From Roseovarius sp. (GTDB lineage: Bacteria; Pseudomonadota; Alphaproteobacteria; Rhodobacterales; Rhodobacteraceae), in contig NZ_JAVJUC010000022.1 in NCBI RefSeq assembly GCF_040219995.1, forward strand, positions 70,417-134,416: a stretch of 64,000 nucleotides of DNA, given 5' to 3'. The number at the start of each line of letters is the position of its first letter. Position 1 is the first letter of the stretch. Positions 11,000-11,600 of this stretch are shown here, piece after piece. The notes under the pieces are model-generated. The model was not told the DNA's origin, made no database searches, and worked only from the letters and a program-made list of their open reading frames with translations. Position numbers and translations under genes: made by a program.

Positions 11000-11085
11000 G
11001 CAATTTCGTGCGCATTTGCGACGTATTTTAACCTTTCCTTCACGTCGGCCCGGTGGTGTACTTTTGTTGCAATCCATTGCAGCAG

Positions 11086-11097
11086 AAGGAGGTGATC
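11086..11097 (+). promoter_or_regulatory. Extended Shine-Dalgarno AAGGAGGTGATC
   Basis: Full complement of the conserved 16S rRNA 3' end, located in an unannotated intergenic region. Confidence 0.7.
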
Positions 11098-11100
11098 AGG

Positions 11101-11190
11101 CTGAATGAAAGCAATTTTCGAAGATGGATGGTCTTTCTTGCAGCGGGAACGCTGTTGGTCACGGTCATCCGGCTTTTGACGGGACTTTGA
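11101..11190 (+). CDS. Candidate small membrane peptide / type I toxin (L/M)NESNFRRWMVFLAAGTLLVTVIRLLTGL; start uncertain
   Basis: One hydrophobic helix preceded by RRW; CTG 8 nt after AGGAGG; in-frame ATG at 11128. Confidence 0.45.
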   Translation: MNESNFRRWMVFLAAGTLLVTVIRLLTGL

Positions 11191-11195
11191 GTTCC

Positions 11196-11273
11196 TGAAA
11201 AAGAAGACCCTGCAGAGTTGGCGCTCCGCAGGGTCACGTTTTCGGTGCTCAGACTGAAAACAATTTTCGAATG
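11196..11273 (-). ncRNA. Candidate antisense sRNA (antitoxin-like), about 80 nt
   Basis: Minus-strand -10 TATATT (11277-11282); 5' part complementary to 11091-11122; ends in a hairpin followed by UUCUUUUU. Confidence 0.45.
11198..11242. terminator. Hairpin GACCCTGC/GCAGGGTC; strong U-tract on the minus strand, weaker one on the plus strand
   Basis: Stem 11206-11213/11228-11235 flanked by aaaaagaa and acgtttt. Confidence 0.7.
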
Positions 11274-11322
11274 ATCAATATACTGCCGATTCCTTAGCAA
11301 AAAGTAAAGCGCGGCCCGAGCC

Positions 11323-11352
11323 AAAAGAAAACGCCGCCACGGAGGACGGCGT
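11323..11352 (-). terminator. Intrinsic terminator of rplS-rpmE
   Basis: acgccg/cggcgt stem followed by tttctttt on the minus strand. Confidence 0.75.
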
Positions 11353-11378
11353 GATCTGTGTGCGTCTTGTCCGTGGTT

Positions 11379-11600
11379 TCAGAAGCCGAGGCCGGCATAC
11401 TTGTTCTTGAACTTCGACACGCGGCCGCCGGTGTCCATCAGACGCGAGGAGCCGCCGGTCCAGGCCGGGTGCACCGAGGGGTCGATGTCGAGCGAGAGCG
11501 TGTCGCCCTCGGCCCCGTAGGTCGAGCGCATCTGCACGACGGTGCCATCGGTCAGCTTGACGTCGATGAGGTGGTAATCGGGGTGGATTTCTTTTTTCAT
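11379..11600 (-). CDS. rpmE: 50S ribosomal protein L31 (Cys-less type)
   Basis: [10 protein letters not shown]...HPAWTGG...GRVSKF. Confidence 0.97.

What the first reader, a model, noticed from the sequence alone, without database searches (positions are those of the whole stretch)
11030..11290. Candidate type I toxin-antitoxin module between smc and rpmE
Seen on the plus strand: a perfect SD AAGGAGGTGATC (11086-11097), then a frame encoding NESNFRRW-MVFLAAGTLLVTVIRLLTGL* (stop at 11190), then a hairpin at 11206-11235. Seen beyond the hairpin: a second copy of the SD/start region (11244-11275; about 28 matches with one 4 nt gap). A minus-strand -10 box TATATT (11277-11282) would start an ~80 nt RNA exactly at that copy, so its 5' end is complementary to the peptide's initiation region, and it would stop at the shared hairpin (UUCUUUUU). 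An upstream UUCCUUC (11035-11041) could also occlude the SD in cis. Known: convergent RNAs, a shared terminator and direct repeats that give dispersed complementarity define the par/Fst type I system of Enterococcus pAD1, and type I toxins are short hydrophobic peptides. Inferred: this is an analogous module; I know of none described in Roseobacters.
Basis: partly seen in the sequence, partly recalled or inferred. Interest (0 to 1): 0.82.

Follow-up and report, generated by a model that had tools for sequence, protein, structure and literature searches.

The report
Small membrane peptide gene with antisense RNA
Between smc and rpmE lies a compact two-gene module, a 29-residue membrane peptide plus a predicted convergent antisense RNA that co-evolves with the peptide's ribosome-binding region; it is built like the par/Fst type I toxin-antitoxin system of Gram-positive bacteria and seems undescribed in marine Roseobacter-group bacteria.

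Summary
The SD, reading frame, hairpin, second copy, TATATT and UUCCUUC all sit at the stated coordinates, and the repeat exceeds chance.

The ORF is a real gene. About 40 homologous loci and 32 database representatives encode a 29-aa peptide (x-E-x-x-[FY]-R-[KR]-W-M-V..A-A-x-T-L..I-I-R-L-[LW]-x-G-x). It is under purifying selection (pN/pS about 0.4). Its first codon is CTG or TTG, placed 8-9 nt after GGAGG. RNA-seq assemblies show a discrete transcript of about 190 nt.

- 17 of 25 intermolecular pairs change on both sides.
- The cognate duplex averages -43 kcal/mol against -28 for non-cognate pairs.
- The permutation p value is about 1e-5.
- Tandem modules within one genome each match only their own copy.

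The hairpin keeps a U-tail on the minus strand. A conserved CTTTAC-N18-CAGTAT promoter-like site lies just upstream of the antisense region.

Two things are not shown: the minus-strand transcript itself, and toxicity of the peptide.

No Pfam, NCBIfam, Rfam or PDB match was found, and no plasmid or phage copy.

Verdict: a new family of a known kind, with a par-like layout in an alphaproteobacterium. Interest is about 0.68.

The parts
11025..11241 (+). Peptide mRNA, about 190-215 nt. The ends are approximate.
   Evidence: Discrete RNA-seq contigs span 11025/26/33/52/65 to 11213/17 in six runs of two studies, at depth equal to or above rpmE in study P2. In X27 a contig that continues from the smc 3' end stops at 11241. 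In a marine metatranscriptome a contig spans 11069-11254. The contigs are unstranded; I infer the strand from the ORF and the terminator.
11029..11043 (+). Conserved TTAA-N7-TTCA motif (TTAACCTTTCCTTCA) about 70 nt upstream of the start codon. Its role is unknown; it may be a promoter or regulator site, or the 5' end of the mRNA.
   Evidence: The motif recurs upstream of most homologous modules, including all three modules of L102. Its resemblance to a CtrA box is from my own knowledge and was not tested.
11066..11083 (+). 5'-UTR hairpin GTTGCAA-TCCA-TTGCAGC immediately before the SD. In this window it can be extended to 11061-11088.
   Evidence: RNAalifold on 16 loci gives 8 pairs, 3 of them with compensatory changes (UA/CG 8:8, AU/GC 11:5).
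11086..11097 (+). Shine-Dalgarno sequence AAGGAGGTGATC. The core GGAGGTGA is nearly invariant across homologues.
11101..11190 (+). ORF for the 29-aa membrane peptide (M/L)NESNFRRWMVFLAAGTLLVTVIRLLTGL, with CTG start and TGA stop.
   Evidence: The frame, length and stop are conserved in about 40 loci. The first codon is CTG or TTG, 8-9 nt after GGAGG, and GTG in one database representative. pN/pS is 0.42 and the third codon position is the most variable. The HMM search found 32 representatives. GRAVY is 1.9 for residues 9-29 and -1.95 for residues 1-8.
11091..11104 (+). Direct repeat copy 1, block A (GGTGATCAGGCTGA). It covers the 3' half of the SD, the spacer and the start codon, and is the predicted target of the antisense RNA.
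11112..11122 (+). Direct repeat copy 1, block B (CAATTTTCGAA), codons 4-8. It is the second predicted target block.
11198..11235 (-). Intrinsic terminator of the predicted antisense RNA: hairpin 11235-11206 followed by a U-tail at 11205-11198. On the plus strand the same hairpin ends the peptide mRNA, so it is a bidirectional terminator.
   Evidence: Terminator scan. The hairpin is conserved, with 6 of 12 pairs showing compensatory changes. The purine-rich left flank, which reads as the minus-strand U-tail, is conserved in nearly all loci that keep the hairpin, whereas the plus-strand T-run is not.
11244..11271 (-). Direct repeat copy 2: block A at 11244-11257 and block B at 11261-11271. Read on the minus strand, it is the target-recognition region of the antisense RNA.
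   Evidence: In every lineage copy 2 tracks copy 1. For this window the duplex is -41.7 kcal/mol between mRNA 11090-11134 and the minus strand of 11283-11243.
11198..11275 (-). Predicted antisense sRNA of about 75-78 nt, starting at about 11275-11272 and ending at about 11198.
   Evidence: Inferred from the promoter-like site, the complementarity and the terminator. No transcript has been observed.
11280..11309 (-). Promoter-like site for the antisense RNA: -35 CTTTAC (11309-11304), an 18-nt spacer, and -10 CAGTAT (11285-11280).
   Evidence: The same layout occurs at the same distance from block B in divergent loci: TTTAC followed about 18-19 nt later by CAGTAT, CATCAT, TAGTAT or GTATAA (L117). 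It was not picked up by the strict sigma-70 scan.

Best explanation
This is a self-contained module of about 290 bp (about 11025-11310) that works like a type I toxin-antitoxin locus with the par/Fst-RNA II layout.

On the plus strand, a short and abundant mRNA encodes a 29-aa peptide. The peptide has a polar, positively charged N-terminus (NESNFRRW) followed by a single transmembrane helix. Translation starts from a very strong SD but a weak CTG start codon.

On the minus strand, a conserved promoter-like site (CTTTAC-N18-CAGTAT) is predicted to drive an RNA of about 75 nt. That RNA runs convergently and ends at the same hairpin, which on that strand carries a proper U-tail.

The two RNAs would be complementary in two ways. 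They are fully complementary over the shared terminator. In addition, the 5' part of the small RNA is the complement of a second copy of two sequence blocks, and so pairs with the 3' half of the SD, the start codon and codons 4-8 of the mRNA. This pairing would block ribosome binding and perhaps trigger cleavage of the duplex, keeping peptide synthesis off while the small RNA is present.

Shown here: the peptide gene is real and transcribed, the two-block complementarity is maintained by co-evolution, and the terminator and promoter-like elements are conserved.

Inferred: the minus-strand transcript, repression of translation, and harm to the cell membrane when the peptide is made in excess.
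For: **1. The gene is coding.** About 40 loci keep the 29-codon frame and its stop. pN/pS is 0.42 overall and 0.32 for codons 2-9, and the third codon position is the most variable.

**2. The region is transcribed.** Discrete contigs of about 190 nt in six runs lie at depth equal to or above rpmE in one study.

**3. The repeats co-vary.** On 14 lineage representatives:
- 86% of 350 cells pair, against 31-43% when the partner is slid.
- 17 of 25 pairs change on both sides.
- 52 double-changed cells are seen against 16.6 +/- 3.5 in shuffles (0 of 500 shuffles reach this).
- The cognate duplex averages -43.0 kcal/mol against -28.3 for non-cognate pairs.
- The cognate partner is strictly the best in 13 of 14 lineages, with permutation p about 1e-5.

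**4. Paralogues are specific.** The three tandem modules in L102 and the two in Roseovarius indicus each match their own copy. In L102 the cognate energies are -42 to -47 kcal/mol and the cross energies -18 to -37.

**5. The orientation fits.** Transition mismatches favour G.U over A.C by 22 to 8, as expected if the plus-strand mRNA pairs with a minus-strand RNA.

**6. The terminator and promoter are conserved.** The hairpin shows compensatory changes and a conserved minus-strand U-tail. A promoter-like site sits at a fixed distance.

**7. The module behaves as a dispensable unit.** R. tibetensis has smc and rpmE only 121 nt apart, with no module. Nonsense and stop-loss variants occur.

**8. 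The layout matches par.** It agrees with the published description of par (PMC7472228).
Against: - No minus-strand RNA has been seen. The low-depth RNA assemblies leave 11218-11359 uncovered. The few contigs that cross this stretch are unstranded and also include the promoter region, so read-through from rpmE or DNA carry-over cannot be excluded.
- Toxicity is untested.
- The peptide is conserved at specific residues across genera and nearly always sits next to smc, which also fits a housekeeping small membrane protein.
- No copy was found on plasmids or phages.
- In L097/L099 the sequence diverges right after the stop codon, and no hairpin or second copy is seen before the contig ends.
- The strict sigma-70 scan found no promoter.
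- The G.U asymmetry is not corrected for shared ancestry.
Confidence: 0.6

Rival explanations
1. The architecture is the same, but the peptide is not a toxin. It would be a conserved small membrane protein with a physiological partner, for example a regulator or subunit of a membrane complex, possibly tied to the neighbouring smc or to the cell cycle. A dedicated antisense RNA would fine-tune its synthesis.
For: - Specific residues are strongly conserved (W-M-V, A-A-x-T-L, I-I-R-L, G) across loci whose peptides are only 54-100% identical.
- smc is the left neighbour in most loci.
- The mRNA is abundant.
- No plasmid or phage copies were found.
- A CtrA-box-like motif lies upstream (the resemblance is from my own knowledge).
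Against: - Tandem duplication with diverged, orthogonal RNA specificities is typical of type I loci and is hard to explain for a single housekeeping protein.
- A congener has an empty site.
- Natural nonsense and stop-loss alleles exist.
- The size, topology and weak start codon resemble known type I toxins (own knowledge).
Confidence: 0.28
2. There is no antisense RNA. The second copy would be a remnant of a partial duplication, kept similar by gene conversion, or a second binding site for a factor that also binds the start region. The hairpin would simply terminate the peptide mRNA and read-through from rpmE.
For: - No minus-strand transcript has been observed.
- Contigs in X23 and X26 run from the hairpin through the promoter region toward rpmE.
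- Direct repeats can be homogenised by recombination.
Against: - Co-variation holds across 14 lineages, although the blocks are only 11-14 nt long and are separated by lineage-specific indels.
- The excess of G.U over A.C is strand-specific.
- The U-tail is conserved on the minus strand and not on the plus strand.
- A conserved -35/-10-like site lies at a fixed distance from block B.
- rpmE already has its own terminator at 11352-11331.
Confidence: 0.08
3. The plus-strand transcript is a non-coding small RNA or a cis-regulatory leader, and the ORF is fortuitous.
For: The ORF is short, starts with CTG, and is mostly missing from annotation or is called with wrong starts.
Against: - The frame, length and stop codon are conserved, and substitutions are mostly synonymous or conservative.
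- The SD is nearly invariant at the correct spacing.
- In-frame ATG codons lie one or two codons upstream in some lineages.
- Rfam gave no match.
Confidence: 0.03

Closest known systems
par (Fst / RNA II) of Enterococcus faecalis plasmid pAD1 and its chromosomal relatives, and the similarly organised SprA1/SprA1as of Staphylococcus aureus
   Same: - The toxin mRNA and the small RNA are convergent and share a bidirectional intrinsic terminator.
- A pair of direct repeats, transcribed in opposite directions, gives a second region of complementarity outside the overlap, and that region covers the SD and the start codon.
- A 5' stem-loop lies next to the SD.
- The start codon is not AUG.
- The peptide is small, with a single transmembrane helix.
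- Paralogues in one cell differ in their repeat sequences.
(Description of par from PMC7472228; organisation classes from PMC8594479.)
   Different: - The host is an alphaproteobacterium. PMC8594479 lists the 3'-convergent organisation only for Gram-positive families.
- The peptide is unrelated. Its charged residues and conserved Trp are N-terminal to the helix, not C-terminal, it has no PXXXG motif, and it has no Pfam hit.
- The predicted small RNA is about 75 nt, against about 40 nt for RNA II.
- Copies are chromosomal only and nearly always next to smc.
Ibs/Sib, Ldr/Rdl and Zor/Orz of Enterobacteriaceae
   Same: All are small hydrophobic peptides. They are chromosomal, restricted to a lineage, and often tandemly duplicated. 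Each copy has its own cognate antisense RNA that discriminates between paralogues (own knowledge; organisation classes in PMC8594479).
   Different: In those families the antisense RNA either lies fully inside the mRNA region or is encoded 5' of the mRNA without overlap. Here it is 3'-convergent, with an overlap at the terminator and a separate interaction at the start region. There is no sequence similarity.
TisB/IstR-1 and DinQ/AgrB
   Same: The peptides are of similar size (27-29 aa) and form a single helix. The mRNA carries a structured 5' UTR, and the small RNA pairs with a non-overlapping region (own knowledge).
   Different: In those systems the small RNA is encoded divergently upstream, and the loci are under LexA control. 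I saw no alphaproteobacterial SOS box here (by eye only; not tested formally).

Membership tests
Type I toxin-antitoxin systems (general definition) | A small (<60 aa) hydrophobic or membrane peptide encoded by a short mRNA | tested here: met
   The 29-aa ORF is conserved and under purifying selection. Residues 9-29 have GRAVY 1.9. A discrete transcript of about 190 nt is seen.
Type I toxin-antitoxin systems (general definition) | An adjacent antisense RNA gene complementary to the toxin mRNA | tested here: inconclusive
   Complementarity and its co-evolution are shown. Promoter-like and terminator elements are conserved. The transcript itself is not seen in the unstranded contig data.
Type I toxin-antitoxin systems (general definition) | The peptide is toxic when overproduced, and the RNA neutralises it by blocking translation or destabilising the mRNA | not testable with these tools
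   This needs expression experiments.
Type I toxin-antitoxin systems (general definition) | Lineage-restricted, often duplicated in tandem, and patchy among relatives (typical features, not defining ones) | tested here: met
   L102 has three tandem modules and R. indicus has two. R. tibetensis has an empty site. All named homologues are Rhodobacterales.
par / Fst-RNA II organisation | Convergent transcription units sharing a bidirectional intrinsic terminator | tested here: inconclusive
   A conserved hairpin lies between the ORF and the second copy, with a good U-tail on the minus strand. The plus-strand tail is weak and not conserved. The minus-strand promoter is inferred from a motif only.
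par / Fst-RNA II organisation | Two direct repeats outside the overlap that make the RNAs complementary at the SD and start codon | tested here: met
   Blocks A and B (11091-11104 and 11112-11122 against 11244-11257 and 11261-11271) show co-variation.
par / Fst-RNA II organisation | An intramolecular 5' stem-loop that sequesters the SD | tested here: inconclusive
   A co-varying hairpin ends 2-3 nt before the SD. In this window its extended form covers AAG of the SD, but occlusion of the SD is not part of the consensus structure.
Fst/Ldr toxin superfamily | A transmembrane helix followed by a conserved Trp and a charged C-terminal tail; a P/D/S/T-XXX-G motif (PMC7472228) | tested here: not met
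   The charged segment and the Trp precede the helix, and the peptide ends 0-1 residue after the helix. No Pfam or NCBIfam toxin family scores at E<=10.
Rfam antitoxin and other RNA families | A match to a curated covariance model | tested here: not met
   The best hits are 12-21 bits against gathering scores of 40-91, and all are unrelated families.
Gram-negative 5'-encoded antitoxin families (TisB/IstR-1, ShoB/OhsC, Zor/Orz, DinQ/AgrB) | The small RNA is encoded upstream of, and divergent from, the toxin mRNA | tested here: not met
   The complementary copy lies 3' of the ORF, beyond the terminator.

The most novel reading that the evidence does not exclude
The peptide is not a poison. It would be a conserved small membrane protein tied to chromosome segregation or the cell cycle. 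It sits directly downstream of smc in most lineages and is preceded by a TTAA-N7-TTCA motif that resembles a CtrA box. A dedicated, co-evolving antisense RNA in a par-like arrangement would gate its synthesis. In that case a 'toxin-antitoxin' architecture has been adopted for routine cell-cycle control in Rhodobacterales.
Probability: 0.12. Interest if true: 0.8.

Novelty: new member of a known kind. Interest (0 to 1): 0.68.

Why it matters
Known type I toxin-antitoxin families are narrowly distributed and come almost entirely from Firmicutes, Enterobacteriaceae and Epsilonproteobacteria (PMC5367252, PMC8594479). I found none described for Roseobacter-group bacteria or other Rhodobacterales in the paper library.

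If confirmed, this would add a new peptide family with several points of interest:
- It would show that the 3'-convergent, repeat-based par layout also exists in a Gram-negative lineage. Because the peptide is unrelated, the layout probably arose by convergence.
- It would provide natural sets of orthogonal mRNA/antisense pairs, two or three per genome. These are useful for studying RNA-RNA specificity and as regulatory parts.
- It would give ecologically important marine bacteria a candidate dormancy or stress module that annotation pipelines currently miss or mis-call.

Tried and rejected
**Database searches that found nothing**
- Rfam at a permissive threshold gave only sub-threshold, unrelated hits.
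- Pfam and NCBIfam gave only weak, sub-threshold hits: YtcA and DUF6906 in Pfam, TrbF and Psb34 in NCBIfam.
- A PDB profile search found nothing meaningful.
- tblastn of the peptide against plasmids and phages found no match.

**Alternative reading frames**
- ATG 11105 would give the 24-aa MKAIFEDGWSF.... I rejected it because that ATG is absent in homologues, which have CTGAGGGAA or CTGAGAGAA.
- ATG 11124 and GTG 11053/11092 are not consistently in frame or not conserved; L111 shifts by one base.
- A start at Met 11128 is unlikely because codons 2-9 evolve as coding sequence and there is no SD in front of it.

**Other ideas tested**
- SD occlusion by UUCCUUC is not supported by the minimum-free-energy or consensus folds.
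- Stranded RNA evidence could not be obtained. Every run holding this sequence is kept as unstranded contigs, and deep runs give one flat contig across everything.
- Of the 80 species representatives with the closest rpmE, only two have the module near rpmE. This says little, because only two of the 80 loci include the smc 3' end at all.
- Co-folding the full RNAs simply pairs the shared terminator. I therefore assessed the start-region interaction with duplex folding of the relevant segments.
Full report
**1. The observation**

- The 12-nt SD AAGGAGGTGATC lies at 11086-11097.
- The frame ends at TGA 11188-11190.
- A 12-bp hairpin lies at 11206-11235.
- The second copy of the start region lies at 11244-11272.
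- TATATT lies on the minus strand at 11282-11277.
- TTCCTTC lies at 11035-11041.

The terminator scan calls the hairpin a terminator on the minus strand, with tail TTCTTTTT. It also finds rpmE's own terminator at 11352-11331. There are therefore two minus-strand terminators in a row, which leaves room for a short minus-strand gene between them.

The repeat is more than chance. Its 18/20 ungapped core was never reached in 500 shuffles. With gaps I count 26 matches over 29 aligned bases.

**2. The ORF is a real gene**

A word-indexed protein search found three close relatives. Their contigs and two Roseovarius genomes among 80 rpmE loci already showed synonymous third-position changes and an in-frame TGA/TAA stop.

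A degenerate-pattern scan of metagenome contigs then returned 31 loci with peptides 54-97% identical to the query. A full HMM search of 1.8 billion representatives returned 32 proteins, all unnamed or labelled 'hypothetical'.

The peptide is almost always 29 residues long. Its pattern is x-x-E-x-x-[FY]-R-[KR]-W-M-V-x-x-A-[AV]-x-T-L-x-V-x-I-I-R-L-[LW]-x-G-x.

The first codon is CTG in most loci and TTG in three, always 8-9 nt after GGAGG. It is GTG in one database representative. Some lineages carry an in-frame ATG one or two codons upstream.

The sequence evolves as coding sequence. Pairwise pN/pS is 0.42 for the whole ORF, 0.32 for codons 2-9 and 0.44 for codons 10-29. The third codon position is the most variable. 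Translation therefore most likely starts at CTG 11101, not at Met 11128.

The product has a polar, positively charged head (GRAVY -1.95) and a hydrophobic helix (GRAVY 1.9). No Pfam, NCBIfam or PDB relative was found.

**3. The region is transcribed**

Six low-depth RNA-seq assemblies from two studies, all of a strain about 96% identical to the window, each contain a discrete contig.

- The contig starts at 11025-11065 and ends at 11213-11217, inside the hairpin loop, where assemblies break.
- In five of the six runs it is separate from smc. In the sixth (X30) it runs on from the smc 3' end.
- In one study its depth equals or exceeds that of rpmE (24 vs 6, 12 vs 3, 10 vs 9.5, 7.6 vs 3.3).

In another strain a contig stops at 11241, just after the hairpin, and the rpmE contig stops at 11326. 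A marine metatranscriptome has a contig spanning 11069-11254.

These data are unstranded, and contig depth is only a rough measure of expression.

**4. The second copy co-evolves with the start region**

In every lineage that keeps the hairpin, the sequence after it repeats two blocks of that lineage's own start region.

- Block A is GGTGA-N5-CTGA, covering the 3' half of the SD through the start codon.
- Block B is about 11 nt within codons 4-8.
- The second copy lacks 3-4 nt between the two blocks.

I tested co-evolution in four ways.

(a) *Duplex energies.* I paired each mRNA start region with the reverse complement of each second copy. Over 14 lineage representatives, cognate pairs average -43.0 kcal/mol and non-cognate pairs -28.3. 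The cognate partner is strictly the best in 13 of 14, and no random assignment among 100,000 reaches the observed sum. For the window the duplex is -41.7 kcal/mol, between mRNA 11090-11134 and the minus strand of 11283-11243; shuffles give -24.4 +/- 3.2.

(b) *Block identity.* The same permutation test on block identity gives p about 1e-5.

(c) *Pair counts.* I counted 25 intermolecular pairs on an alignment of 14 mRNA/antisense chimeras.
- 86% of cells pair, against 31-43% when the partner is slid by 1-3 columns.
- 17 pairs change on both sides.
- 52 double-changed cells are seen, against 16.6 +/- 3.5 in shuffles (0 of 500).

One caveat applies: I chose the register of each second copy by best match to its own first copy. 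The non-cognate controls in (a) and (b) used the same procedure.

(d) *Mismatch asymmetry.* Among transition mismatches, 22 would be G.U wobbles in an mRNA x minus-strand-RNA duplex and 8 would be A.C (p = 0.016, not corrected for phylogeny). This favours RNA pairing in the proposed orientation over plain repeat homogenisation.

The clearest single case is metagenome locus L102. Three complete modules follow smc in tandem, and each matches its own second copy (-42, -47 and -44 kcal/mol) but not the others (-18 to -37). Roseovarius indicus has two such modules.

**5. Elements of the predicted antisense gene**

The hairpin is conserved, with compensatory changes in 6 of 12 pairs. Its left flank on the plus strand is purine-rich in nearly all of these loci, which reads as a U-tail on the minus strand. 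The T-run on the plus strand is often missing.

Upstream on the minus strand, CTTTAC is followed 18-19 nt later by CAGTAT, CATCAT, TAGTAT or GTATAA. This site always lies 7-10 nt before the complement of block B. In the window the -35 is at 11309-11304 and the -10 at 11285-11280. That predicts a start at about 11275-11272 and an RNA of about 75 nt ending at about 11198.

The strict sigma-70 scan did not call this site. It is closer to the alphaproteobacterial consensus CTTGAC-N17-CTATAT, which I cite from my own knowledge.

The predicted RNA folds into a small 5' stem-loop plus the terminator.

No transcript has been observed. Low-depth assemblies leave 11218-11359 uncovered. The two contigs that cross this stretch also include the promoter region and reach rpmE or its terminator. 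Read-through from rpmE, or DNA in the library, therefore remains possible. A 75-nt RNA would in any case be lost from standard libraries.

**6. Other conserved parts of the mRNA**

A hairpin immediately upstream of the SD co-varies. A TTAA-N7-TTCA motif recurs about 70 nt upstream of the start.

**7. Distribution**

All named carriers are Rhodobacterales: Roseovarius, Maritimibacter and unnamed Rhodobacteraceae.

The left neighbour is smc in most loci. The right neighbour varies: rpmE, a Bax1-I protein, a transglycosylase or an RNA methyltransferase.

Roseovarius tibetensis has smc and rpmE only 121 nt apart, with nothing but the rpmE terminator between them. The module is therefore a discrete unit that can be gained or lost.

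Variant alleles exist:
- a TAG at codon 12 in three contigs;
- loss of the stop codon in L105 and in a Maritimibacter genome;
- a locus whose sequence diverges right after the stop codon.

No plasmid or phage copy was found.

**8. Interpretation**

The anatomy matches, part for part, the published description of par/Fst-RNA II. That system has convergent promoters, a shared bidirectional terminator, two direct repeats that make the RNAs complementary at the SD and start codon, a 5' stem-loop at the SD, a non-AUG start, and repeat sequences that differ between paralogues so that they do not cross-talk (PMC7472228).

According to the T1TAdb paper, this 3'-convergent organisation, with the interaction lying outside the overlap, is known only from Gram-positive families (PMC8594479).

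The peptide is not an Fst/Ldr relative. Its charged segment and Trp precede the helix, it has no charged C-terminal tail, and it has no profile hit.

I therefore file the module as working like par, but as a new family. My confidence in each claim is:
- the peptide gene is real: about 0.95;
- an antisense RNA pairs with the start region: about 0.8;
- the peptide is toxic, so that this is a strict toxin-antitoxin pair: about 0.55-0.6.

The main rival keeps the RNA mechanism but makes the peptide a non-toxic small membrane protein linked to smc or the cell cycle.

I found no description of such a system in Roseobacter-group bacteria or other Rhodobacterales in the paper library.

Noticed in passing
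window 11029-11043 (also L102, L110, L112, L101, L113, L097 upstream regions): A conserved TTAA-N7-TT(C/G/A)A motif lies about 70 nt upstream of the peptide start. It resembles the CtrA box TTAA-N7-TTAA (own knowledge). The RNA contigs start at or inside it, so it may be a regulator site or the 5' end of the mRNA.
   Followed up: partly
window 11010-11047: In the strain sequenced in runs X14 and X16, a 38-nt stretch nearly identical to this upstream region occurs a second time on another long contig. It is followed there by a similar but diverged sequence (..GGTGGTGTAACCG..). This may be a second module or a co-regulated gene.
   Followed up: no
L102 1040-2100; L119 1600-2330: Two or three complete modules lie in tandem directly after smc. 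Each has its own diverged and matching antisense blocks, forming a natural set of apparently orthogonal pairs.
   Followed up: yes
L090, L091, L092 (codon 12 of the ORF): TAC has changed to TAG, truncating the peptide to 11 residues in three metagenome contigs. The hairpin, second copy and promoter-like site stay intact.
   Followed up: partly
L105 468-572; L116 2501-2686: The stop codon is lost. The ORF is extended to 34 residues in L105, and to 61 residues in the Maritimibacter genome, where it reads through the terminator hairpin and the second copy. In L105 the second copy is also degenerate (duplex only -21.5 kcal/mol).
   Followed up: partly
L097 and L099, from 1591: The sequence diverges from all other loci a few bases after the stop codon. 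No hairpin or second copy is seen in the 126 nt before the contig ends. This could be an insertion or a rearrangement that removed the antisense part.
   Followed up: partly
L003 3220-3340 (Roseovarius tibetensis): smc and rpmE are adjacent as in the window but only 121 nt apart, with just the rpmE terminator between them. This is an empty site for the module.
   Followed up: yes
window 11086-11097: The SD is complementary over 12 nt to the 3' end of 16S rRNA (own knowledge of that sequence), yet it is paired with a CTG start codon. This is an unusual combination of a very strong ribosome-binding site and a weak initiation codon.
   Followed up: no
window 11025-11065: The 5' ends of the RNA contigs differ between runs (11025, 11026, 11033, 11052, 11065). 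This could reflect low coverage, or 5' processing of the mRNA as in several type I toxin mRNAs.
   Followed up: no
window 11211-11445: Contigs in X23 and X26 (from related strains) run from the hairpin loop through the promoter-like region toward rpmE: X23 reaches into rpmE, and X26 reaches about as far as the rpmE terminator. The antisense region may therefore also be transcribed by read-through past the rpmE terminator, or these libraries may contain DNA.
   Followed up: no
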